From contig CAZJZV010000001.1 in NCBI GenBank assembly GCA_964550635.1, positions 5,754 through 69,753 on the forward strand: 64,000 bases of DNA, given 5' to 3'. The DNA is from an uncultured Bacteroidaceae bacterium. Its GTDB lineage: Bacteria; Bacillota; Clostridia; Christensenellales; CAG-917. Below are positions 4,035 to 57,879 of this stretch, in pieces. The translations under genes were made by a program, and so were the position numbers. Position 1 is the stretch's first letter. Each line of letters opens with the position of its first letter. The notes under the pieces were generated by a model. That model had not been told where the DNA came from, made no database searches, and saw nothing but the letters and a program-made list of their open reading frames with translations.

Positions 4035-5981
4035 ATGGATAAATTCGGCAGAATGTCTGAACTGGTTGAAATTCTCAACCGCTATGCAAAACTGTATTAC
4101 GAAGAAGATGCTCCGGTCGTTTCGGACGCGGAGTACGACGCTCTTTACGACGAATTGAGAAAAATCGAGAGCGAACTCGGTTTCTCAATGCCCAATTCAC
4201 CTACTCATAGAGTAGGTGGCGCACCTCAAAAAAAGTTTGAACAGAAAAAACACCTGTTGCGCCTTTATTCCCTTGACAAGTGTCAAAGCATAGGCGAATT
4301 CGACGATTGGTGCGCTCGCACCGCAAAAACTCTAGGCTATCTTCCCGCACTTACCGCCGAATACAAATTCGACGGACTCACTCTCAATCTCCTTTACGAC
4401 GGCGGAAAACTCGTCCAAGCGACGACGAGAGGTGACGGAGTTACCGGGGAAGTGGTGACCGCACAAGTCAACACAATCAAGAAACTACCGAAAGAAATAG
4501 AATATAAAGGCAAAATCGAAATTCAAGGAGAAGGTATTCTTCGCTTGTCGAATTTCAACAAGTATAACGAAACCGCATCAGAGCCGCTGAAAAACGCACG
4601 TAACGGTGTGGCGGGTGCAATAAGAAATCTAAATCCCGCAGTGACGGCGGAGAGAAATATATCATTCTTTGCCTACAATATCGGCTACACCGAAGAAAAA
4701 TTTTCGTCACAGTCTGATATGCGTGATTTTCTCATCGAACAAGGCTTTGAAACAGAAGGTGATTTCGAAGTCATATCCACCAAAGAAGAAGTGGAAAAAT
4801 ATATCGAAAAAGTCACTGAAATCAGGGAAAATCTCGACTATCTCATTGACGGACTAGTGTTCAAAGTCAACAATTTGAAGCTGCGTGAAGAATTAGGCTA
4901 CACCGAAAAATTCCCTAAATGGGCGGTTGCGTACAAGTTCAAAGCGGACGAAATGACAACGGTGCTCACCGACGTCGTGTGGCAAGTTTCAAGAAGTGCA
5001 AAACTCAATCCGCTTGCCGTTTTGGAGCCTGTCGACATTGGCGGTGTAACAGTCAAACGCGCGACTTTGAACAACTATGGCGACATTCTCAAAAAGAAAG
5101 TCAAAATCGGCGATAGAGTGTTTATCAGGCGTTCTAACGATGTTATTCCCGAAATTATGGGGGTGGCGGAAGAGAATGAAAATGCGGTAAAAATCGAAAA
5201 ACCTACCGTCTGTCCCGCCTGCGGAGCGCCTGTCAAAGAAGTTGGCGCATTCCTATATTGCACAGGTGAGCATTGCGCACCGCAAGCAATTTCTCTTATC
5301 GACCATTTTGCATCGAAAGACGCTATGGATATTGAAGGTTTTTCAGAGAAAACCGCCGAACAATTCTACAATGAAATAGGCATGCGTACCCCCGTCGATT
5401 TGATGAATTTGACCGCCGATCAAATGTTCGGTTTGGACGGCTTCGGTGATAAGAAAATCGGCAATCTACTCGGCTCGATTGCAAAATCGAAGACCGTGAC
5501 TGCGGATAGATTTTTGTACGCTCTCGGCATTGACGGAATAGGCAAGAAAACCGCAAAGGATTTGATCAAAAAATTCCGCACTTTCGACGCACTCAAATCC
5601 GCCACTCTCGACGACCTTTCGGACGTGGACGGAATCGGCGGAATTCTAGCATCTAACCTAGTCAATTACTTCTCGGACGAGAAAAATTTGGTGTATCTTA
5701 ACGACCTTTTCGCAAGTGGAATTACCCTTGTCGAAGAGGAAGAAAAATCCGGTGTTTTTTCTGGATTGAAAGTGGTGTTGACAGGCTCTCTTCCTACCTA
5801 TAAACGCGGGGAGGTTACGAAACTCATCGAAGACAACGGCGGAGAAGTCGCATCGAGCGTTTCAAAAACCGTTGATTTGGTGCTTGCAGGGGAAGACGCG
5901 GGAAGCAAACTCGAAAAGGCACAAAAACTCGGAATTAAAATCATCGACGAAAACGAATTCAAAAATTTGCTCGGGCTTTGA
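4035..5981 (+). CDS. ligA: NAD-dependent DNA ligase LigA
   Basis: 648 aa. Adenylation lysine motif KFDGL, a Zn-finger CPACG...C, HhH repeats and a C-terminal BRCT (GLKVVLTGSL). Confidence 0.95.
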   Translation: MDKFGRMSELVEILNRYAKLYYEEDAPVVSDAEYDALYDELRKIESELGFSMPNSPTHRVGGAPQKKFEQKKHLLRLYSLDKCQSIGEFDDWCARTAKTLGYLPALTAEYKFDGLTLNLLYDGGKLVQATTRGDGVTGEVVTAQVNTIKKLPKEIEYKGKIEIQGEGILRLSNFNKYNETASEPLKNARNGVAGAIRNLNPAVTAERNISFFAYNIGYTEEKFSSQSDMRDFLIEQGFETEGDFEVISTKEEVEKYIEKVTEIRENLDYLIDGLVFKVNNLKLREELGYTEKFPKWAVAYKFKADEMTTVLTDVVWQVSRSAKLNPLAVLEPVDIGGVTVKRATLNNYGDILKKKVKIGDRVFIRRSNDVIPEIMGVAEENENAVKIEKPTVCPACGAPVKEVGAFLYCTGEHCAPQAISLIDHFASKDAMDIEGFSEKTAEQFYNEIGMRTPVDLMNLTADQMFGLDGFGDKKIGNLLGSIAKSKTVTADRFLYALGIDGIGKKTAKDLIKKFRTFDALKSATLDDLSDVDGIGGILASNLVNYFSDEKNLVYLNDLFASGITLVEEEEKSGVFSGLKVVLTGSLPTYKRGEVTKLIEDNGGEVASSVSKTVDLVLAGEDAGSKLEKAQKLGIKIIDENEFKNLLGL

Positions 5982-9000: not shown

Positions 9001-11174
9001 TGGTACTCAAAGTCGTTGTTGACATATCGACGGGGGCTCTCGACAAAACCTTTGACTACGAAGGCGACGATATGCCTATCGGCAGTAGGGTTTCGATAGA
9101 GTTCGGCAGAAAGCGCATCATCGGTTTCGTCATCGGAAAGAAGGATAAATCCGATTATCCGAATCTCAAAAAAGCAACTCTAATCGACAGTCCCGTCAAC
9201 GAAGAGTTGATAAAACTCCTTGAGTTTATGCGGGACAAATATAATCTTCGTTATATCGACGTGCTACGTCTTTTCATTCCCGCGAAACTGCGAGAGGAAA
9301 AAGACCCCGAATATACGAGGATTTTTCTTTTGCCGAACGAAAAACTCACCGACGAAGAGTGCAGAGAGAAAATCGGCACGAGAGCGAAAAAACAAATTGA
9401 ATTGTACGAATATCTGCTGAATAAAAAAGGCGGTTATCTCGCACAATTGAACAACCTTTTCGGGGTGTCCGCAGTGAACGGACTTCGTGAAAAAGGAGTT
9501 GTCGAAGAGAAAAATATTCACGAGAGAAAGACTCCGCTTGTCGGACTTTCCCGCGCGGATAAGGAAGTCAAACTCACTCCTGCGCAACAATCCGCCGTCG
9601 ACGAAATCTCGTCGGGACAGGGGACTTATCTTCTGCACGGTGTGACGGGTAGCGGTAAGACGGAAGTCTATATGCACGTCATCGACAAAATGCTCGAAAA
9701 GGGCAAAACCGCAATCATGCTCGTGCCTGAAATCTCACTCACACCGCAAATGCTCGGCATCTTCCGCGCACGGTTTGGGGACAACGTTGCATTACTGCAC
9801 TCGGGACTCAACGCAACCGAGCGTTACGACGAGTGGAAACGACTTAAAACAGGTGAAGCGAAAATCGCAATCGGCGCGCGCAGTGCAATATTTGCACCGC
9901 TCTCAAACGTCGGCGCAATCTTCATCGACGAAGAACACGACACGAGTTATTTGAGCGATTCAAATCCCCGCTACGACACGAGAGAAGTGGCGGAATTTAG
10001 AGCAAATATGAGCGGGGCGGTGCTAGTGCTTGGCTCCGCCACTCCCGATATTTGCACCTATCGCAAGACGACGAGCGGTGAGTTCAAATTGATAACTCTT
10101 CCCGACCGCATATCATCCCACAAACTTCCAGATATGGAAATCGTGGATATGACCTGCGAATTCAGAAGCGGTAACCGCTCTCCGTTTTCGCACACGCTCA
10201 TCGACGGCATACGCGACGCACTTAATCGAAAAGAGCAAATCATACTCTTCCTAAATCGCAGGGGATTTTCGTCGTTTATGCGTTGTCGCGACTGCGGTTA
10301 CGTGCCTAAATGCGACCTGTGCGACGTGTCGATGACCTATCACAAACAGGAAAACAACCTTAAATGCCACTACTGCGGAGCGACGAAAGCGCCTATCACG
10401 GTTTGTCCGATATGCGGTTCGCACAACATAAAGCAAGGCAGAGTCGGCACGGAAAAAATAGTCGAAGAATTGAACGCAATTTTCCCGAGCGCACGCTGTC
10501 TACGTATGGACAACGATACGACGAAAGGAAAGGATGCCTATTTCAAAATTCTCGACAAATTCGGCAAGGGAGAAGCGGATATTCTCGTCGGCACTCAAAT
10601 GATTGCGAAAGGACACGATTTCCCGAACGTCACTCTTGTCGGAATAATGGAAGCGGATGCGGCTCTATTTATGAGCGATTTCCGTGCGTCGGAGCGCACC
10701 TATCAACTTGTTACGCAGGTTGCGGGCAGAGCGGGTAGAGCAGAGAAGAAAGGCAGAGTAATTTTGCAAGCGTACTGGCCGACGCACTACGTTTTCAAGT
10801 TCGCGAAAACCTACGATTATCAAGGCTTTTTCGGCATTGAAAATAATCGCAGAATGGTCACGGGATTTCCGCCGTACTGCACACTTTTGAGAGTTATGAT
10901 TGCATCGAGCGACCGCGACTCCGCTCGAAATAGCGCAAAACAAATGTACGTGGCAATCCGCAATTTGCAAGAGAAATACGGCAGATTTTTGTTCATAAAT
11001 ATGACCGAATCTCCGATTAGGATGTTGAGTGGACTATATCGCTATCAAGCAGTGCTACGGCTCAATCCCAAAAATTCAGACTTGGTTATCAAAGATATAT
11101 ACAAGATTGTCGATGAATACAAACCGTCAAACGGCGGCGCTTTCGTCGAATTGAACCCCCAAAACTTATACTGA
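9000..11174 (+). CDS. priA: Primosomal protein N' (replication restart helicase PriA)
   Basis: 724 aa. Walker A GVTGSGKT, DEEH box, and a Cys-rich Zn region (CRDCGY..C..C...H....L.CHYCG). Its start overlaps the coaBC stop (TGATG). Confidence 0.93.
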   Translation: MVLKVVVDISTGALDKTFDYEGDDMPIGSRVSIEFGRKRIIGFVIGKKDKSDYPNLKKATLIDSPVNEELIKLLEFMRDKYNLRYIDVLRLFIPAKLREEKDPEYTRIFLLPNEKLTDEECREKIGTRAKKQIELYEYLLNKKGGYLAQLNNLFGVSAVNGLREKGVVEEKNIHERKTPLVGLSRADKEVKLTPAQQSAVDEISSGQGTYLLHGVTGSGKTEVYMHVIDKMLEKGKTAIMLVPEISLTPQMLGIFRARFGDNVALLHSGLNATERYDEWKRLKTGEAKIAIGARSAIFAPLSNVGAIFIDEEHDTSYLSDSNPRYDTREVAEFRANMSGAVLVLGSATPDICTYRKTTSGEFKLITLPDRISSHKLPDMEIVDMTCEFRSGNRSPFSHTLIDGIRDALNRKEQIILFLNRRGFSSFMRCRDCGYVPKCDLCDVSMTYHKQENNLKCHYCGATKAPITVCPICGSHNIKQGRVGTEKIVEELNAIFPSARCLRMDNDTTKGKDAYFKILDKFGKGEADILVGTQMIAKGHDFPNVTLVGIMEADAALFMSDFRASERTYQLVTQVAGRAGRAEKKGRVILQAYWPTHYVFKFAKTYDYQGFFGIENNRRMVTGFPPYCTLLRVMIASSDRDSARNSAKQMYVAIRNLQEKYGRFLFINMTESPIRMLSGLYRYQAVLRLNPKNSDLVIKDIYKIVDEYKPSNGGAFVELNPQNLY

Positions 11175-28316: not shown

Positions 28317-28640
28317 GCAAGTTAGTCGGGCGGTCGCGGGGTAGAAATACCGTGAGGAAAGTCCGAGCATCATAGGGCAAGAGTGCAGGTGAAATACCTG
28401 TGAAGGCGACTTTAAGGATAGTGCAACAGAAAAATACCGCCCGCAAAGGGTAAGGATGGAAAGGCGAGGTAAGAGCTCACCCGCAAATCGGTGACGAGGC
28501 GCGATGTAAACCCCACTCGATGCAAGACCGGAGCATATAGGATTGCCCGTCCGCTCCACACGTCGCTTGATCGATACGGCAACGTATCGGCTAGATAGAT
28601 GGCCGTCCAAGACAGAACTCGGCTTACAGACTAATCTTGC
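28317..28640 (+). ncRNA. rnpB: RNase P RNA, bacterial type A
   Basis: Universal GAGGAAAGTCCG. Also AGGGCA, GTGCAACAGAAA, GGTAAGAGCTCACC and the 3' ACAGAACTCGGCTTACAG. The P1 stem pairs GCAAGTTAGTC (28317) with GACTAATCTTGC (to 28640). Confidence 0.93.
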
Positions 28641-28667
28641 AAACGCTCGAAAGGGCGTTTTTATTTT
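28641..28667 (+). terminator. Terminator after rnpB
   Basis: Stem AAACGC/GCGTTT with an 8-nt loop, followed by TTTATTTT. Confidence 0.65.
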
Positions 28668-53446: not shown

Positions 53447-54313
53447 ATGAACATAGCAAAATTCGGTCCGTCAGGACATTCAGAAAGTTTTTCGCTCGAA
53501 CACTCGGCAACCATAGAAATGCCGAAGTGGATTTCTGCGCGCGGACTTGAACTTTTTGAATATTCCTTTGGAAAAGGGGTGCGAATTTCAAGCGAAACCG
53601 CGACGGCAATAGGGCAGGAAGCGGAAAAATACGGCATCGAAATGAGTGTTCACGCACCGTATTTTATCAGTTTCGCATCGTTAGAACCGCAAAAAGTCGA
53701 AAATTCCATTACATACTTGACCTCATCTCTCAAAGTCTTGCGCCACTTCGGCGGACAGAGATGCGTATTCCACACGGGATCGGAAAACGGTCAACCGAGA
53801 AAGGAAGCGTTTGCGCGTGCCAAAGACGCTTTTTCCCGCGCACTTGATGAAATCAGGGCGGAAGGACTTGACGATATGTACGTTTGCCCCGAAACCATGG
53901 GAAAATCCGCTCAAATCGGCACCGTTGAAGAGATTATCGAACTTTGCAATCTCGCGCCAAACGTCTATCCATGCATCGACTTCGGACATATCAATGCGCT
54001 TTACGGCGGATCTTTGAAGTGCGCAGACGATTTTCAGGCAATCGTAGACAAACTTTTCGACGGAATAGGGGAAGAGAAAACCAAAAATATGCACGTACAT
54101 TTCAGCAAAATCATGTACGGACCAAAGGGCGAAATCAAACATTTGACGTTTGAAGACACCGTCTACGGTCCCGAATTTGATGGTTTTGCCGAAGTCATCG
54201 TCAAAAACGGTCTCACCCCGCACGTTCTGTCAGAATCCGCAGGCACGCAAGCAGAAGACGCTCAAACAATAAAATCTCTCTATCAAAACGCCTTCAACAG
54301 CCTGCCAAAATAG
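53447..54313 (+). CDS. Endonuclease IV-like TIM-barrel protein (AP endonuclease family 2 fold)
   Basis: 288 aa. Motif series parallels Nfo: VHAPYFISF, CVFHTGS, CPETMGK, CIDFGHINA, HVHFSK. Confidence 0.65.
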   Translation: MNIAKFGPSGHSESFSLEHSATIEMPKWISARGLELFEYSFGKGVRISSETATAIGQEAEKYGIEMSVHAPYFISFASLEPQKVENSITYLTSSLKVLRHFGGQRCVFHTGSENGQPRKEAFARAKDAFSRALDEIRAEGLDDMYVCPETMGKSAQIGTVEEIIELCNLAPNVYPCIDFGHINALYGGSLKCADDFQAIVDKLFDGIGEEKTKNMHVHFSKIMYGPKGEIKHLTFEDTVYGPEFDGFAEVIVKNGLTPHVLSESAGTQAEDAQTIKSLYQNAFNSLPK

Positions 54314-54617: not shown

Positions 54618-54668
54618 GTCGTCTATCAAGCCCTGTAGCAACAAGCGTTGGTAGACGGCTTTTCATTT
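54618..54668 (+). terminator. Second hairpin/terminator
   Basis: 12-bp stem GTCGTCTATCAA/TTGGTAGACGGC (two G-U pairs), 18-nt loop, then TTTTCATTT. Confidence 0.45.
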
Positions 54669-54887
54669 GCTTCCAAAACAATTCCAAAAATCACGCATTT
54701 TTTCATATTCAGTAACCGCAACCATCAAAAATATACCAAAGCAAACTTGAAAATTGAGCATAAACGCAGGGCAGTGATCGCTAAAAAACGACTTTTTACT
54801 AAATCCATCCAAATTCAACCGACAGCAATAGAAAAATTTAACGGTAATTTTACCGTGCTTTATAGGTTAGGGTATAAGGTGTTTTTA

Positions 54888-54916
54888 TTGACTTCATTAA
54901 GTATACGTGATAAAAT
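54888..54916 (+). promoter_or_regulatory. Near-consensus promoter reading antisense across the 24-aa ORF (candidate antitoxin RNA promoter)
   Basis: TTGACT-17 nt-TAAAAT. The predicted start near 54921-54923 coincides with an ATG that opens a 28-codon ORF (54923..55009) with no SD. Confidence 0.55.
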
Positions 54917-54930
54917 ACGCAAATGGGAGG

Positions 54931-55005
54931 TTATTCGCTCTCGGATAGTTCTTTAATTATCTGTATTGTTACTAACACAATTTGCAAGATTAGCAGTAAC
55001 TTCAT
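54931..55005 (-). CDS. 24-aa hydrophobic peptide, candidate type I toxin (Fst/Ldr-like architecture)
   Basis: AAAGGAGG lies 8 nt upstream of the ATG. MKLLLILQIVLVTIQIIKELSESE has a hydrophobic helix and an acidic tail. It is fully overlapped by the transcript predicted from the convergent + promoter. Its own upstream TTGACT (55051-55056) lacks a good -10. Confidence 0.45.
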   Translation of the reverse strand: MKLLLILQIVLVTIQIIKELSESE

Positions 55006-55150
55006 TTGAATAACCTCCTTTTCATTTTTGCGTATTACGTATACGTTTTAAGTCAATAAAAAGTAGGGTGTTATACGGTAAAATTGTTCGAAAAAAGCGG
55101 TAATTTTTACCGCTTTTAATCTACTTACGTAATCTTCAATTTTTGACCTC

Positions 55151-55300
55151 TAGCTGAGTATCATAAAAAGGGTGGTATTCATTTTCATATGCTTGTTGGT
55201 GGAGTTTCCGGAATTGAATTAGGATTTGTATATGCTAAATCTGTATATAGCAAATTTGCCGGTGGTGAGTTGCCTATATATAACGTTACTGCTTGGAAAT
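55151..55300 (+). repeat. Direct repeat copy 1 (150 nt)
   Basis: 149/150 identical to 55532-55681, with one T/G difference at 55155/55536 (synonymous GCT/GCG). The offset is 381 nt, which is in frame. Confidence 0.95.
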
Positions 55301-56055
55301 TCTATATTACTAACACGGCACATTATCTCTGCAACGCAGAGAGAAGCGCAAGAAGAGTTTATAACGTTATATGCGATTTGTTTGATTGTAATCAATTTAA
55401 TTATTTTATAACGCTAACTTTTTCTTCGGAAAAATCGGGGGATAGGTTGGACGATGATAATACTCGTGCGCTATTTGCAAAATGGCGCAAGTATATTCGA
55501 AGTAAATTTCCTAATATGAAATACATTAGTATAGCGGAGTATCATAAAAAGGGTGGTATTCATTTTCATATGCTTGTTGGTGGAGTTTCCGGAATTGAAT
55601 TAGGATTTGTATATGCTAAATCTGTATATAGCAAATTTGCCGGTGGTGAGTTGCCTATATATAACGTTACTGCTTGGAAATACGGTTTTTCTACTGCTTC
55701 TAAAATAGTGTCTAAAGAAGCTTGTCAATCTTATGTATTAAAATATGTTGTTAAAGGTGGGGTAGATCCTAGATTTTTCCGTAAACAGCGTTATACGTGT
55801 TCAACTAATCTTGTACGTCCGGAAACGATAAATTATAAAGAGGTGTGTAACTCATTTGACGTATATGATTTTGAAGAGAAGAATGATTACGAATTGTTGT
55901 TTGCAGATTTCAATCATGCTTTTTATAAGTTCAATGTACCTAATTTCAGGATAGGGAACACCAATCAAACTATGCGCAAAACACTTCTTTTACGAATAGA
56001 AAGGATTAAAAATGCCTGTCGGGGGCGGATAGTTCAATTTTTGACGATTTTCTAA
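55189..56055 (+). CDS. rep: HUH-superfamily rolling-circle replication initiator (two-tyrosine, phiX174 gpA/Microviridae-like motif III), 5' end rearranged
   Basis: Motif I is FITLTF (55405-55422). Motif II is HFHMLV (55561-55578), with a second partial copy in repeat 1. Motif III is YVLKYVVK (55732-55755). The frame is open from 55147. The first ATG lies inside repeat copy 1 and has no SD, so the gene may be a pseudogene. Confidence 0.7.
   Translation: MLVGGVSGIELGFVYAKSVYSKFAGGELPIYNVTAWKFYITNTAHYLCNAERSARRVYNVICDLFDCNQFNYFITLTFSSEKSGDRLDDDNTRALFAKWRKYIRSKFPNMKYISIAEYHKKGGIHFHMLVGGVSGIELGFVYAKSVYSKFAGGELPIYNVTAWKYGFSTASKIVSKEACQSYVLKYVVKGGVDPRFFRKQRYTCSTNLVRPETINYKEVCNSFDVYDFEEKNDYELLFADFNHAFYKFNVPNFRIGNTNQTMRKTLLLRIERIKNACRGRIVQFLTIF
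55532..55681 (+). repeat. Direct repeat copy 2 (150 nt), the native HUH-motif region of rep
   Basis: See copy 1. It encodes AEYHKKGGIHFHMLVGGVSGIELGFVYAKSVYSKFAGGELPIYNVTAWK. Confidence 0.95.
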
Positions 56056-56115
56056 AAATCTGTTTTGTTGTAAATTTGTTTTCAAAGTTATTTTCAAAAT
56101 TTGATTTTCAAGTTG

Positions 56116-56169
56116 GATTTTAGATTTGATTTTAATCTTGATAAATTTATTTAATCTGATTTTAGATTT
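56116..56169 (+). repeat. Two GATTTTAGATTT copies flanking a CTTGATA motif (candidate double-strand origin)
   Basis: GATTTTAGATTT occurs at 56116-56127 and 56158-56169, with a third ATTTTAGATTT at 56281-56291. CTTGATA at 56137-56143 equals the nick-site core shared by phiX174 and pC194-family origins. Confidence 0.35.
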
Positions 56170-56336
56170 CAAATTCATTTTGATTCAACTTGTCTGATTG
56201 ATTATTTTTGCCTTTCAATCAAACGATTATCTTGTCACTTTTCTCGCTAAACTTCATCTCTCGCTCGCTCTTTTGACTAAATTTTAGATTTCTGCCGATA
56301 TTACAATTCGTTTAACCATGCATTCGACCGCATAAA

Positions 56337-56450
56337 TCACTGCAACTTTTACCGCTTAAATTACTGCACGTTATACCGACAAATTTTCCGTCAATATTGA
56401 CAAAATATCACCGCCTAAATTTCTATCTAAATTTCTGCGGATTTTGCCTA
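56337..56450 (+). repeat. Iteron-like repeats ACCGC(N)TAAAT(N)ACTGCA
   Basis: ACCGCATAAATCACTGCA (56337) and ACCGCTTAAATTACTGCA (56361) are 24 nt apart. Degenerate copies lie at 56385 and 56420. Confidence 0.5.
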
Positions 56451-56555
56451 TATAATAACCGTCAATGATCCAATTAAATCACCAATTTTGATGGTATTTC
56501 ATTGTTGATTTCCGTCAAAAGCAAGTGATTTTAATTGCAATTTTTTGATTGAAAA

Positions 56556-56592
56556 AGCCGTATTTTGAGCAGTTTTTGGTCAAAATACGGCT
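56556..56592 (-). terminator. Rho-independent terminator downstream of the ynbB-like gene
   Basis: 11-bp stem AGCCGTATTTT/AAAATACGGCT, followed on the minus strand by TTTTTCAATC. Confidence 0.7.
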
Positions 56593-56631
56593 AAATTGCG
56601 ATGAAAATCAATATTTTCTTGAGATTTTAGG

Positions 56632-57879
56632 CTATTTTATGGTTTTTATCAACGTATGTTCAAGTGCGATAACTGCGTGTTCATAGGTCAATGCGCCTTG
56701 AATATATGCAATATACGGTGCTTTTATCGGCGAATCGGCAGATAATTCGATTGATGCGCCTTGCACAAATGCGCCTGCCGCCATAATAACTTGGTCTTGA
56801 TAACCGGGCATATCCCACGGTTCAGGCACAACGTTGCTATCAATCGGCGAAACTTCTTGAATTGCACGGCAAAAATCAATCAATTTTTCGGGAGAATTGA
56901 GTTTCAGACTGCAAATTATGTCGTATGGCGGAGTTTTGTCGTCGGGAAGAGTTTCAAAACCGAGTTTTGAGTATGCTTTTGAGAACAAAACGGCACTTTT
57001 CAGTGCGGATTTTACTACGGACGGAGCGATGAAAAGCCCTTCAAAAAACGGCAAATACCCGGACAATGACGAACCTTCTTCCATGCCAAGCGACGGTGCG
57101 GTCAGTCTATATGCGCATTGATCGACTAGATCTGCTTTTCCTGCGACGTAACCGCCCGTAGGCGCAAGTCCACCGCCTAAATTTTTGATGAGAGAACCTG
57201 CAACGAGATCCGCACCGACTTGCAAAGGTTCGATTTTTTCAACAAATTCACCGTAGCAATTATCGACCAAAATCAAGGTTTCGGGACTGATTTTCTTGAC
57301 GAAAGCGGTGAGTTCCGCGATTTGTTCAACGCTTATTGCACTGCGCCAAGCATAACCGCGACTTCTTGCGACGAAAACCGCTTTAATCCTTGTGTTTAGT
57401 AGGAATTTTTCAATTTTCTCATAGTCGAATACGGGATTGTTATCGACGGTTTTCAGGTCGATATGGTCGAATTTCACACCGAAATCCGCAAGCGAGCCTT
57501 TATTTTTTCCACTGATGACGTCCGTCAAAGTATCATATGGCATTCCCGACACCGAAAGCAACGTATCGTTTGGGCGAAGTACACCGAAAAGCATCAAGGT
57601 CAGTGCGTGTGTACCTGATACGATATGCGGTGAAAACAGTGCTTTTTCTCCGCCGAGAATTTCCGCAAAGAGTGCGCAAAGCGCGTCGCGACCTATATCG
57701 TCGTAGCCGTAACCCGTAGTGCCTGCAAGGTGACGAGCCTGTATGCCGTATTTTGCAAAAGCATCTAGCACCTTTTTTTGATTGAAAAGAGCAATATCGT
57801 CCAGTCTATCAAATTCCGCACAAAGTTCTTTTTCGCATTCTTTGACAAATTGTCTTGCGGTTTCTTCATTGAAATTCAT
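56632..57879 (-). CDS. PLP-dependent Cys/Met-metabolism family protein (YnbB / aluminium-resistance-protein family)
   Basis: 415 aa. Contains ...TTGYGYDDIGRD.L..L.A...G.E.ALF.P.IVSGTHAL.... Its position downstream of mutS-mutL-miaA matches many Firmicutes. Confidence 0.82.
   Translation of the reverse strand: MNFNEETARQFVKECEKELCAEFDRLDDIALFNQKKVLDAFAKYGIQARHLAGTTGYGYDDIGRDALCALFAEILGGEKALFSPHIVSGTHALTLMLFGVLRPNDTLLSVSGMPYDTLTDVISGKNKGSLADFGVKFDHIDLKTVDNNPVFDYEKIEKFLLNTRIKAVFVARSRGYAWRSAISVEQIAELTAFVKKISPETLILVDNCYGEFVEKIEPLQVGADLVAGSLIKNLGGGLAPTGGYVAGKADLVDQCAYRLTAPSLGMEEGSSLSGYLPFFEGLFIAPSVVKSALKSAVLFSKAYSKLGFETLPDDKTPPYDIICSLKLNSPEKLIDFCRAIQEVSPIDSNVVPEPWDMPGYQDQVIMAAGAFVQGASIELSADSPIKAPYIAYIQGALTYEHAVIALEHTLIKTIK

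What the first reader, a model, noticed from the sequence alone, without database searches (positions are those of the whole stretch)
54841..55117. Face-to-face promoter inverted repeat enclosing a 24-aa hydrophobic ORF: candidate type I toxin-antitoxin
Seen:
- A ~277-bp module is bounded by two related hairpins (ACGGTAATTTTACCGT and A6-GCGGTAATTTTTACCGC-T4).
- Its two ~95-nt arms are inverted copies of one another. Each carries TTGACT plus a GGAGG.
- The minus-strand arm has AAAGGAGG-8nt-ATG opening MKLLLILQIVLVTIQIIKELSESE (54931..55005).
- The plus-strand arm has a near-consensus promoter (TTGACT-17-TAAAAT) but no start codon after its GGGAGG. Its transcript would be perfectly antisense to the peptide ORF, its SD and its start codon.
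- The toxin-side arm has lost the 5 nt (GATAA) that create the -10 in the other arm, so it looks like the weaker promoter.
- A 28-codon ORF (54923..55009, MGGYSLSDSSLIICIVTNTICKISSNFI) begins at the predicted +1 of the plus promoter.

Established: type I TA loci such as par/Fst, TxpA/RatA and BsrG/SR4 encode peptides under 60 aa with a TM helix and a charged tail. They are controlled by convergent or overlapping antisense RNAs from stronger promoters, and are often found on plasmids and prophage remnants.

Inference: this is an addiction module belonging to the adjacent Rep remnant. I do not recognise the peptide as a member of a named family.
Basis: partly seen in the sequence, partly recalled or inferred. 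Interest (0 to 1): 0.65.

Follow-up and report, generated by a model that had tools for sequence, protein, structure and literature searches.

The report
Candidate type I toxin–antitoxin module
A 240-bp mirror-image DNA module encodes a conserved 24-residue membrane-type peptide and, on the opposite strand, a small RNA from a strong promoter; gut Clostridia have kept it intact while the phage-like element that brought it decayed, which fits a small "addiction" (type I toxin–antitoxin) cassette, though neither toxicity nor transcription has been shown.

Summary
Positions 54841-55117 hold a long imperfect inverted repeat (single-strand fold z about -8) with a near-consensus + promoter, a Shine-Dalgarno (SD)-led 24-codon hydrophobic ORF on the - strand, and hairpins at both ends.

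- **Homologous modules:** they occur in strain variants, in a sister-species MAG (L005, 89% identity) and in a more distant relative (L006, ORF about 80%).
- **Peptide ORF:** it keeps 24 codons, its SD and its start in all six variants. pN/pS is 0.21-0.28, and residues 6-16 are invariant.
- **The 28-codon + ORF:** it loses its ATG and gains a stop, so it is not a gene.
- **Antisense unit:** the promoter scores 10-11 of 12 with an extended -10 everywhere, and the conserved block runs exactly from its -35 to its terminator.
- **Origin:** the module is cargo at the left end of a small integrase-less element inserted at a dif-like site. Empty sites lack it. Three lineages deleted different internal genes but kept the module.

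Still untested or weak:
- toxicity;
- transcription (no RNA runs were found);
- a recognisable promoter on the peptide side.

No known peptide or RNA family matches. Verdict: a new member of a known kind. Confidence about 0.55, interest moderate.

The parts
54841..54856 (-). Left hairpin ACGGTAATTTTACCGT followed on the - strand by TAAATTTTTC. Candidate terminator of the peptide mRNA.
   Evidence: Terminator-like hit on the - strand. An equivalent CGGTAAAATCTACCG plus T-run sits at L006 5586-5572. It is absent from L005 and weakened in strain lineage C (54842 C>G).
54888..54916 (+). Promoter of the antisense RNA: TTGACT-17 nt-TAAAAT with TG upstream (extended -10). Predicted start near 54923.
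   Evidence: 10 of 12. The orthologous promoters are TTGACT-17-TAAAAT in L005 and TTGACA-17-TACAAT in L006 (11 of 12). Alignable conservation with L005 begins exactly at the -35.
54923..55121 (+). Predicted ~195-nt antisense RNA (candidate antitoxin). It is fully complementary to the peptide ORF, its SD and its start codon.
   Evidence: Bounded by the promoter and the hairpin plus T-run 55091-55121. The RNA fold is -51 kcal/mol, z = -4.6. The conserved block 54885-55120 (89% to L005) coincides with this unit. Transcription was not observed.
54931..55005 (-). 24-codon ORF MKLLLILQIVLVTIQIIKELSESE (candidate toxin): a hydrophobic helix with Q8 and Q15 and an acidic tail.
   Evidence: Intact with the same length in six variants. 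pN/pS is 0.21-0.28. Variable sites by codon position are 7, 2 and 12. Residues 6-16 are invariant despite synonymous changes.
55014..55018 (-). Shine-Dalgarno GGAGG of the peptide ORF, 8 nt before the ATG.
   Evidence: Read from the sequence. Conserved in L005 and L006.
54926..54936 (.). GGAGGTTATTC, the inner inverted-repeat arm. In the peptide mRNA its complement (GAAUAACCUCC, containing the stop codon) pairs with the SD. In the antisense RNA it is the 5' strand of the closing helix.
   Evidence: Pair I12, 11 of 11 complementary. The predicted mRNA fold sequesters the SD. The helix is invariant in all five aligned versions.
55008..55018 (.). GAATAACCTCC, the partner arm of the SD/anti-SD helix. 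It includes the SD complement.
55019..55085 (-). Peptide-side arm: T-run, -35-like TTGACT (55056-55051), then a spacer 5 nt shorter than in the other arm, so no -10 sits at a workable distance. Candidate weak promoter and leader.
   Evidence: Arm alignment. The scan finds no promoter on this side in the window, L005 or L006. L006 shows the same asymmetry (a 6-nt shorter spacer) with different arm sequence.
55091..55117 (.). Right hairpin A6-GCGGTAATTTTTACCGC-T4. It would terminate the antisense RNA and insulate the - strand.
   Evidence: Pair I13. Conserved in L005 (6326-6350) and expanded to nested hairpins in L006 5829-5871.
55151..55963 (+). Rearranged remnant of a rolling-circle Rep gene (PF23343, ORF2/G2P type) from the same element. 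It is context, not part of the module.
55968..56003 (.). dif-like imperfect palindrome AACTATGCGCAAAACAC-TTC-TTTTACGAATAGAAAG. It is the attachment site and right border of the element.

Best explanation
The module is a self-contained pair of convergent, overlapping genes carried by a small, integrase-less, probably filamentous-phage-like element inserted at a dif-like site.

The - strand encodes a 24-residue hydrophobic peptide. The + strand, from a near-consensus constitutive-type promoter, encodes a ~195-nt RNA that is perfectly antisense to the peptide's SD, start codon and whole ORF.

The most likely mechanism is a type I toxin-antitoxin (addiction) system, with these steps:
1. The abundant antisense RNA pairs with the scarce peptide mRNA and blocks translation and/or triggers its decay.
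2. The mRNA also hides its own SD in an 11-bp helix with the sequence just after the stop codon.
3. If the DNA is lost, the peptide is made and damages the membrane, so cells that lose the element are counter-selected.

Shown here:
- the anatomy;
- the coding constraint on the peptide;
- conservation of the antisense promoter and terminator;
- membership of the mobile element;
- persistence under purifying selection after the element decayed.

Inferred, not shown:
- that both RNAs are made;
- that the peptide is toxic;
- that the RNA neutralises it.
For: 1. **Coding signature.** Six variants (window, strain lineages B, C and D, L005, L006) keep a 24-codon ORF with SD-8 nt-ATG.
 - pS is 0.37-0.57 against pN 0.08-0.15 (ratio 0.21-0.28).
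 - Fisher p = 0.001 (window vs L006) and 0.008 (window vs L005).
 - The alternative + frame shares its wobble positions. It loses its ATG in L005, lineage D and L006, and has an in-frame stop in L006.
2. **Antisense promoter.** It scores 10-11 of 12 with an extended -10 in all three versions. Alignable conservation with L005 runs from its -35 to the end of its terminator. The rest of the island is unalignable.
3. **Purifying selection in the decayed state.** Lineage B has 2 substitutions in the 277-nt module against 11 in 184 nt of immediate non-coding flanks (p = 0.001). With more flank included the figure is 41 in 546 nt (p = 7e-6).
4. **Mobile-element cargo.**
 - In L006 the module lies just inside the left attachment half-site of an element with small membrane proteins and a P-loop protein.
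 - Relatives with an empty site (L007, L008) have only the dif-like site and no module.
 - The window, L005 and L006 carry different internal deletions, yet all keep the module.
5. **SD sequestration.** An invariant 11-13-bp helix hides the SD. The promoter asymmetry, strong antisense against a crippled sense spacer, recurs in L006 although the arm sequence differs.
6. **Fit to published features.** Type I toxins are small (under 60 aa), hydrophobic with a charged C-terminus, located on prophages, paired with convergent antisense RNA, and have AGGAGG 7-8 nt before the ATG (PMC6563280, PMC7699646).
Against: - **No expression data.** No RNA run holds the locus.
- **No convincing promoter for the peptide mRNA.** None is found in any version. 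The bidirectional hairpin upstream should block read-through, so how the peptide is expressed is unexplained.
- **Unusual peptide features.** The tail is acidic (ELSESE, or ELSKGE in relatives), not the lysine-rich tail typical of Gram-positive type I toxins. The hydrophobic stretch is only about 15 residues.
- **Inconsistent mRNA terminator.** The candidate terminator of the peptide mRNA is missing in L005 and weakened in lineage C.
- **No family match.** Pfam, NCBIfam, PHROGs and Rfam give nothing.
- **Shallow sampling.** The comparative sample is six variants from one narrow clade.
- **No covariation support.** Covariation in the RNA helices is nil (term 0.12).
Confidence: 0.55

Rival explanations
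1. The peptide is a non-toxic small membrane protein whose level is tuned by a cis-antisense RNA. It would be phage cargo useful to the host or the phage, for example superinfection exclusion or modulation of a membrane complex. There would be no post-segregational killing.
For: It draws on the same conservation evidence as the main explanation. Retention in decayed prophages also fits a host benefit. The acidic tail and very short helix are atypical for Gram-positive type I toxins (PMC6563280). Inoviruses carry many small uncharacterised membrane proteins and exclusion genes (PMC6813254).
Against: Full-length antisense cover from a near-consensus promoter, a crippled sense promoter and a sequestered SD point to a product that must be kept almost silent. 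A useful structural membrane protein would not be expected to need this.
Confidence: 0.2
2. The functional product is the + strand small RNA, acting in trans on host or phage targets. On this view the peptide ORF on the other strand is a by-product.
For: The conserved block coincides exactly with the + transcription unit. The + RNA is predicted to be strongly structured (z = -4.6). The arms are more conserved than the ORF centre in lineage C (2 of 170 against 5 of 71, p = 0.025).
Against: Substitutions in the ORF concentrate at wobble positions, and pN/pS is 0.2-0.3. Of the two frames that share those wobble positions, only the - frame keeps a start, an SD and an open frame. A hairpin inside the ORF region is broken in L005 by changes that are synonymous for the peptide. 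No Rfam family matches.
Confidence: 0.1
3. The long hairpin is a DNA-level signal of the single-stranded phage-like element. It would be a minus-strand origin (a promoter mimic in folded ssDNA, as in Ff phages or plasmid ssoA) or a packaging signal. The ORF and promoters would then be incidental.
For: A 240-nt imperfect palindrome folds at z about -8 as ssDNA. It carries -35 and -10 boxes in the stem. It lies in the non-coding stretch next to the attachment site of an element with a rolling-circle Rep. The arms stay as similar to each other (74-82%) as to their orthologues across module types (64-73%).
Against: The module stays under purifying selection in genomes where Rep is truncated or deleted and the morphogenesis genes are gone, so an origin or packaging signal has nothing to act on. 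The loop carries a protein-coding substitution pattern. Other elements with related Rep genes (L002, L004, L011, L012) have no such module. A dual role in the intact phage is not excluded.
Confidence: 0.07
4. It is a decaying relic with no present function, for example an inverted duplication or MITE-like repeat that merely looks conserved.
For: Only a narrow clade carries it. No transcription data exist.
Against: The module has about eight-fold fewer substitutions than its immediate flanks in lineage B (p = 0.001; 7e-6 with more flank), is 89% identical in a species where the rest of the island is unalignable, and shows pN/pS well below 1. It is single-copy in the window and absent from the phage, plasmid and viral collections.
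Confidence: 0.03

Closest known systems
Ibs/Sib type I toxin-antitoxin loci of Enterobacteria (IbsA-E, 18-19 aa; Sib RNAs about 140 nt)
   Same: A very short hydrophobic peptide is encoded directly opposite a longer small RNA that covers the whole ORF, its ribosome-binding site and its start codon. The antisense promoter is the stronger one (from my own knowledge; overview in PMC2887945 and PMC8309996).
   Different: There is no sequence similarity. The host is Gram-positive and the module sits on a mobile element rather than in chromosomal repeats. Here the two transcription units are mirror copies of one promoter-leader, and the peptide has an acidic tail.
Prophage-borne type I TA modules of Clostridioides difficile (CD0977.1-RCd11, CD0956.2-RCd10, CD0904.1 and others)
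   Same: They are found in Clostridia and are carried by prophages. The toxin and antitoxin genes are convergent and overlapping. AGGAGG lies 7-8 nt before the ATG. They stabilise the mobile element and were missed by annotation (PMC7699646, PMC6563280).
   Different: Those toxins are 34-53 aa with lysine-rich tails, and the overlap is usually partial. The peptide here is 24 aa with an acidic tail and is fully overlapped. No homology was found. Those prophages are tailed phages, not a small Rep-encoding element.
hok/sok (plasmid R1) and related systems with fold-back inhibition
   Same: The full-length toxin mRNA is predicted to be translationally inert, because a downstream complementary element pairs with the translation-initiation region. 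The role is post-segregational killing of cells that lose the element (from my own knowledge).
   Different: hok uses a leader ORF (mok), 3' processing and a short 5' antisense RNA. None of these is evident here. There is no sequence relation.
par (Fst/RNAI-RNAII) of Enterococcus plasmid pAD1
   Same: It is Gram-positive. The two RNAs are transcribed convergently and share a bidirectional terminator region. The peptide is small, with a hydrophobic helix and an acidic or charged C-terminus (from my own knowledge).
   Different: In par the RNAs overlap only at the terminator and interact through direct repeats at the 5' ends. Fst is 33 aa. The overlap here covers the entire ORF.
Toxin-antitoxin cargo of inoviruses (for example PfiT/PfiA of Pf4)
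   Same: A TA module is accessory cargo at the edge of an integrated filamentous prophage (PMC6813254, PMC12328805).
   Different: All inovirus TA pairs catalogued in PMC6813254 were type II, with one type IV, and almost all came from Proteobacteria. This one would be RNA-controlled (type I) and in a Clostridia-type host.
Minus-strand origins of ssDNA replicons (Ff phage hairpins B/C; plasmid ssoA/ssoU)
   Same: A long imperfect hairpin beside a rolling-circle Rep gene presents promoter-like -35 and -10 boxes when folded (from my own knowledge).
   Different: Such origins are non-coding and useless without the replicon. This module encodes a constrained peptide and is conserved where the replicon is dead.

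Membership tests
Type I toxin-antitoxin system | Small (<60 aa) hydrophobic protein with a predicted transmembrane helix, really protein-coding | tested here: met
   The 24-aa ORF has a 15-residue hydrophobic core. It is conserved with pN/pS 0.21-0.28 and has an SD and ATG in six variants.
Type I toxin-antitoxin system | An antisense RNA gene base-pairs with the toxin mRNA | tested here: inconclusive
   A conserved near-consensus promoter and terminator define a ~195-nt unit fully complementary to the ORF, SD and start. No RNA data were available.
Type I toxin-antitoxin system | Over-expression of the protein is toxic (growth arrest or membrane damage) | not testable with these tools
   This needs an expression experiment.
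Type I toxin-antitoxin system | The RNA neutralises the toxin; the antitoxin is unstable and the toxin mRNA stable | not testable with these tools
   This needs co-expression and rifampicin chase. Only SD sequestration in the mRNA is predicted.
Type I toxin-antitoxin system | The toxin gene is transcribed from its own (usually weaker) promoter | tested here: inconclusive
   A conserved -35-like TTGAC(T/G) is present, but the spacer is 5-6 nt short and no acceptable -10 exists in any version.
Named type I toxin or antitoxin families (Fst/Ldr, TxpA/BsrG, Ibs, Hok, C. difficile toxins; Rfam antitoxin RNAs) | Sequence or profile similarity to the family | tested here: not met
   Pfam, NCBIfam and PHROGs give no match for the peptide. 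Rfam gives only sub-threshold, terminator-driven hits.
Single-strand origin or packaging hairpin of an ssDNA replicon | A non-coding structured element whose conservation depends on a functional Rep or morphogenesis system | tested here: not met
   The module is conserved under purifying selection where Rep is truncated (window) or deleted (L005, L006). Its loop shows coding constraint.
Dispersed intergenic repeat or MITE | Multiple copies per genome or in unrelated contexts | tested here: not met
   There is one copy in the 64-kb window. Every copy found lies at the same chromosomal site. Only the window, not the whole genome, could be searched.
Xer/dif-exploiting integrative element (IMEX), as context of the module | No integrase, and insertion at a dif-type site that is duplicated at the borders and present once in empty sites | tested here: inconclusive
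   The site pattern is met. No integrase is seen in L006. Strand bias flips at the site. That the site is the chromosomal dif, and that Xer acts on it, was not shown. The site does not resemble the canonical Bacillus dif (from my own knowledge).

The most novel reading that the evidence does not exclude
This would be a previously undescribed type I toxin-antitoxin family: a 24-aa toxin with an acidic tail, built as a mirror duplication of one promoter-leader in which the sense copy was disabled by a spacer deletion. It would act as the addiction module of an integrase-less, Xer/dif-type filamentous-like prophage in gut Clostridia. It would lock the element at the chromosome's dimer-resolution site and outlive the phage. 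It would be the first RNA-controlled TA reported for such elements. It might also double as the phage's ssDNA hairpin signal.
Probability: 0.4. Interest if true: 0.6.

Novelty: new member of a known kind. Interest (0 to 1): 0.45.

Why it matters
Type I toxin-antitoxin loci are nearly invisible to annotation and are known from few lineages. In Clostridia they are known essentially from C. difficile prophages.

A validated case here would:
- add a new, very short toxin family from uncultured gut Clostridia;
- give the first RNA-controlled addiction module on a small Rep-encoding, dif-inserting element. The 2019 inovirus catalogue (PMC6813254) predicted only type II and one type IV pair;
- explain why fragments of such elements persist at the dimer-resolution site long after the phage is dead.

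The mirror architecture also suggests how an antitoxin RNA gene can arise: by inverted duplication of the toxin's own promoter and leader.

In practice, such tiny toxins are useful counter-selection markers and plasmid-stabilisation cassettes for genetically difficult anaerobes.

Tried and rejected
**Searches that found nothing**
- blastn of the whole island against phage and plasmid records: no match.
- Four scans of viral contigs with arm, peptide-coding and Rep patterns, plus one with the L006 P-loop protein: nothing.
- JGI metagenome scan with the peptide alignment: 127 pattern hits, none confirmed.
- A structure-type pattern (SD-ATG-54..84 nt-anti-SD): two hits, both inside ordinary coding regions and so chance matches.
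- Homologue search with the 67-aa gene next to the L006 module: it found only itself.
- RNA-seq runs: none listed.
- Rfam, Pfam, NCBIfam and PHROGs for the RNA or peptide: nothing significant.

**Ideas checked and dropped**
- Elements with related Rep genes (L002, L003, L004, L011, L012) were checked for a similar small ORF or inverted repeat. None has one. They carry a different GC-rich hairpin upstream of rep.
- The 102-aa ORF 54648-54956, called as a gene in the Logan contig, is spurious. It has no family, and its upstream two-thirds is unalignable in L005.
- The 28-codon + ORF is rejected: the start is lost and a stop gained in relatives.
- An operator role for the ACGTATACGT palindrome in the promoter spacers was considered. 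The palindrome is absent from L006.
- An upstream promoter that would put the whole - arm into the peptide mRNA was looked for by eye and not found.
- Covariation analysis of the RNA helices was uninformative because the helices are invariant.
Full report
**1. The observation**

The region 54841-55117 is as described.
- The left hairpin ACGGTAATTTTACCGT lies at 54841-54856, and the right hairpin A6-GCGGTAATTTTTACCGC-T4 at 55091-55117.
- Between them, two arms (about 54846-54936 and 55008-55085) match as an inverted repeat in blocks: AATTTTACCGT, TTTTTATTGACTT, GTATACGT, AATACGCAAA and GGAGGTTATTC.
- The + arm carries TTGACT-17-TAAAAT, preceded by TG. This is one of the two best promoter-like sites in 2.4 kb, both scoring 10 of 12.
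- The - arm lacks 5 nt (GATAA) and therefore has no -10.
- The - strand has GGAGG, 8 nt, then ATG, opening MKLLLILQIVLVTIQIIKELSESE at 54931-55005.
- As single-stranded DNA the 291 nt fold to -52.2 and -47.6 kcal/mol. Shuffles give about -22 +/- 3.5 (z about -8, 0 of 200 as good).
- There is no second copy in the window.

**2. Setting**

The module lies in a 2.3-kb low-GC island: GC 0.30-0.35 against 0.45-0.50 in the flanks. The island sits between two convergent housekeeping genes.
- One is a xylose-isomerase-like TIM barrel (AP_endonuc_2, PF01261) gene at 53447-54313, + strand.
- The other is a methionine gamma-lyase gene at 56632-57879, - strand.

The neighbouring ORF 55189-56055 matches PF23343 (Rep ORF2/G2P) and PHROG rolling-circle initiators. 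It is a wreck in three ways.
- 55151-55312 is a 96% copy of 55532-55693.
- About 58 N-terminal residues present in the homologues P0002 and P0003 are missing.
- Its 3' end reads into a dif-like palindrome (see section 5).

A Logan contig (L001) and strains X4 and X9 lack the 381 bp between the repeats. Homologues of the flanking AP_endonuc_2 protein are labelled Clostridia or [Eubacterium] siraeum. The carriers are gut metagenomes.

**3. Relatives of the module**

Three sources gave homologous modules, all at the same chromosomal site.
- **Strain variants read from Logan contigs.** Lineages B (X6, X9, X10) and C (X13) were laid on the window. Lineage D (X15-17) was laid on L005.
- **L005.** This is a GTDB representative MAG with the same gene order in reverse. 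Window 55120-54880 aligns to L005 6320-6560 at 89%. The rest of the island does not align, except a 75-nt piece at the dif-like site.
- **L006.** This Logan contig has an AP_endonuc_2 protein 89% identical to the window's. Its ORF region is about 80% identical, and its arms are clearly different in sequence.

**4. What is conserved**

*The peptide.* The six versions are:

| Variant | Peptide |
|---|---|
| window | MKLLLILQIVLVTIQIIKELSESE |
| lineage B | MKLLLILQIVLVTIQIIKELSEGE |
| lineage C | MKLLIILQIVLVTIQIIKELSKGE |
| lineage D | MKLLVILQIVLVTIQIIKELSEGE |
| L005 | MTLLVILQIVLVTIQIIKELSKGE |
| L006 | MSLLLILQIVLVTIQIFKEISELE |

- All have 24 codons, a GGAGG-type SD at 8 nt, and a TAA stop embedded in GAATAACCTCC.
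- Variable sites by codon position are 7, 2 and 12.
- pS is 0.37-0.57 against pN 0.08-0.15, a ratio of 0.21-0.28. Fisher p = 0.001 and 0.008.
It has ACG or AAG instead of ATG in L005, lineage D and L006, and an in-frame TGA in L006. The - frame is therefore the coding one.

*The antisense unit.*
- The promoter is TTGACT-17-TAAAAT in the window and L005, and TTGACA-17-TACAAT in L006. An extended -10 TG is always present.
- Alignable conservation with L005 starts at the -35 (about 54885) and stops just after the right hairpin's T-run (about 55120). That span is exactly one + strand transcription unit of about 195 nt.
- The predicted RNA is strongly structured (z = -4.6).
- Its closing helix, GGGAGGUUAUUC with GAAUAACCUCC, is invariant in all versions.

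*The mRNA.* In the predicted peptide mRNA the same helix pairs the SD with the sequence around the stop codon.

*The promoter asymmetry.* In L006 the peptide-side spacer is again shortened, by 6 nt, although the arm sequences differ (GTGTGCT against GTATACGT). No scan finds a promoter on that side in any version.

*Selection in the decayed state.*
- Lineage B has 2 substitutions in the 277-nt module against 11 in 184 nt of adjoining non-coding DNA (p = 0.001).
- With further flank included the figure is 41 in 546 nt (p = 7e-6).

**5. Whose module is it?**

In L006 the order of features is as follows:
1. AP_endonuc_2 gene.
2. A half copy of AACTATGCGCAAAACAC... at 5466-5497.
3. A hairpin.
4. 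The module, about 5560-5870.
5. Six same-strand genes of 67, 62, 82, 352 (Walker A), 123 and 296 aa, mostly membrane proteins.
6. A full palindrome AACTATGCGCAAAACAC-GAG-TTTTACGAATAGAAAG at 9232-9270.

More distant relatives, L007 and L008, have only that palindrome in a 0.5-kb intergenic region. They have no module.

Elements with related Rep genes carry a similar palindrome immediately after rep (L002, L003, L004). Gene strand and AT skew flip at this position in the window.

I infer a small integrase-less element that inserts at a dif-like site. It is probably filamentous-phage-like, but the morphogenesis genes have no family matches, so this is not proven. The module would sit at its left end and rep at its right end.

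On that reading:
- the window keeps both ends and has lost the middle;
- L006 has lost rep;
- L005 has lost almost everything but the module.

That is three independent decay paths, all of which spared the module.

**6. Interpretation**

A DNA-level role (minus-strand origin or packaging hairpin) is attractive for an ssDNA element. It cannot explain the coding constraint in the loop, nor purifying selection where Rep and the assembly genes are gone. A trans-acting small RNA alone does not explain the wobble-biased substitutions and the preserved SD, ATG and frame.

The best fit is a type I toxin-antitoxin-like cassette. It would combine a tightly silenced hydrophobic peptide (weak promoter, sequestered SD, full antisense cover) with an abundant antisense RNA. 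Such a cassette could stabilise an element that Xer-type recombination could otherwise excise.

The published hallmarks of type I systems in Clostridia are matched (PMC6563280, PMC7699646):
- a small hydrophobic protein with a charged C-terminus;
- AGGAGG 7-8 nt before the ATG;
- a convergent antisense RNA;
- a prophage location and prophage stabilisation.

In layout the closest system is Ibs/Sib, where a tiny peptide is entirely covered by the antisense RNA.

Weak points:
- there are no expression data;
- no peptide-side promoter is recognisable;
- the tail is acidic and the helix only about 15 residues long;
- the mRNA terminator is not consistently present;
- the phylogenetic sample is shallow.

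I put the toxin-antitoxin reading at about 0.55. A non-toxic regulated membrane peptide gets 0.2. The remainder is split between the small-RNA-only, origin or packaging, and relic readings.

**7. Novelty**

No peptide or RNA family matches. The inovirus survey that catalogued TA cargo found only type II and one type IV pair, almost all in Proteobacteria (PMC6813254).

This is therefore a new member of a known kind, with two unusual traits: the mirror-duplicate architecture and the dif-site context. Interest is moderate. It would rise if toxicity and RNA control were demonstrated.

Noticed in passing
window 55968-56003; also L007 5637-5672, L008 5567-5602, L006 5466-5497 and 9232-9270, L005 5961-5982, L002 6810-6831, L004 1083-1104: There is a dif-like imperfect palindrome (12-nt arms, 6-nt spacer): AACTATGCGCAAAACAC-NNN-TTTTACGAATAGAAAG. 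It stands alone in the empty intergenic site of relatives. It flanks the element in L006. It follows rep directly in related elements. Gene strand and AT skew flip here. This suggests an integrase-less element that uses a Xer-type site at the replication terminus.
   Followed up: partly
window 55151-56055: The 'Rep' ORF is a chimera. 55151-55312 duplicates 55532-55693 at 96%. About 58 N-terminal residues are missing compared with the homologues. The last ~30 codons are read from the dif-like site region. Some strains (X4, X9, contig L001) have lost the 381 bp between the repeats, and with them Rep motifs 1 and 2.
   Followed up: yes
L006 5880-9233: A fuller version of the element sits at the same chromosomal site. 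It has six same-strand genes of 67, 62, 82, 352 (N-terminal TM helix plus Walker A GGVKTGKST), 123 and 296 aa. None matches Pfam or PHROGs convincingly, and there is no rep and no integrase. It is possibly an undescribed group of filamentous-like prophages of gut Clostridia.
   Followed up: partly
window 56056-56631; L006 9300-9800: The AT-rich non-coding stretch beyond the dif-like site holds short direct repeats (56116-56142 and 56158-56184). It also has scattered TTTTACCG- and TTTCCGTC-like words, the same word that forms the module's terminator hairpins. TTTTACCG occurs 9 times in the window against 4 expected, 4 of them in the island.
   Followed up: no
L005 (CAZLVK010000013.1): The MAG is titled 'uncultured Bacteroidaceae bacterium'. 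Its contig is nevertheless syntenic and about 88% identical in coding DNA to this locus, whose flanking AP_endonuc_2 protein has homologues labelled Clostridia or Eubacterium siraeum. The taxonomic label or the binning looks wrong.
   Followed up: no
L002 5950-5990; L004 205-240: Related Rep genes are preceded by a conserved GC-rich hairpin (GTGGCGGTGG...CCACCGCCAC) just upstream of the start codon. It may be the plus-strand origin or a regulatory hairpin. It is absent from the window because that part of the element was deleted.
   Followed up: no
window 28318-28643: A bacterial RNase P class A RNA is present (238 bits). It is the only Rfam family above threshold in the window. No tRNA genes were found in the 64 kb.
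   Followed up: no
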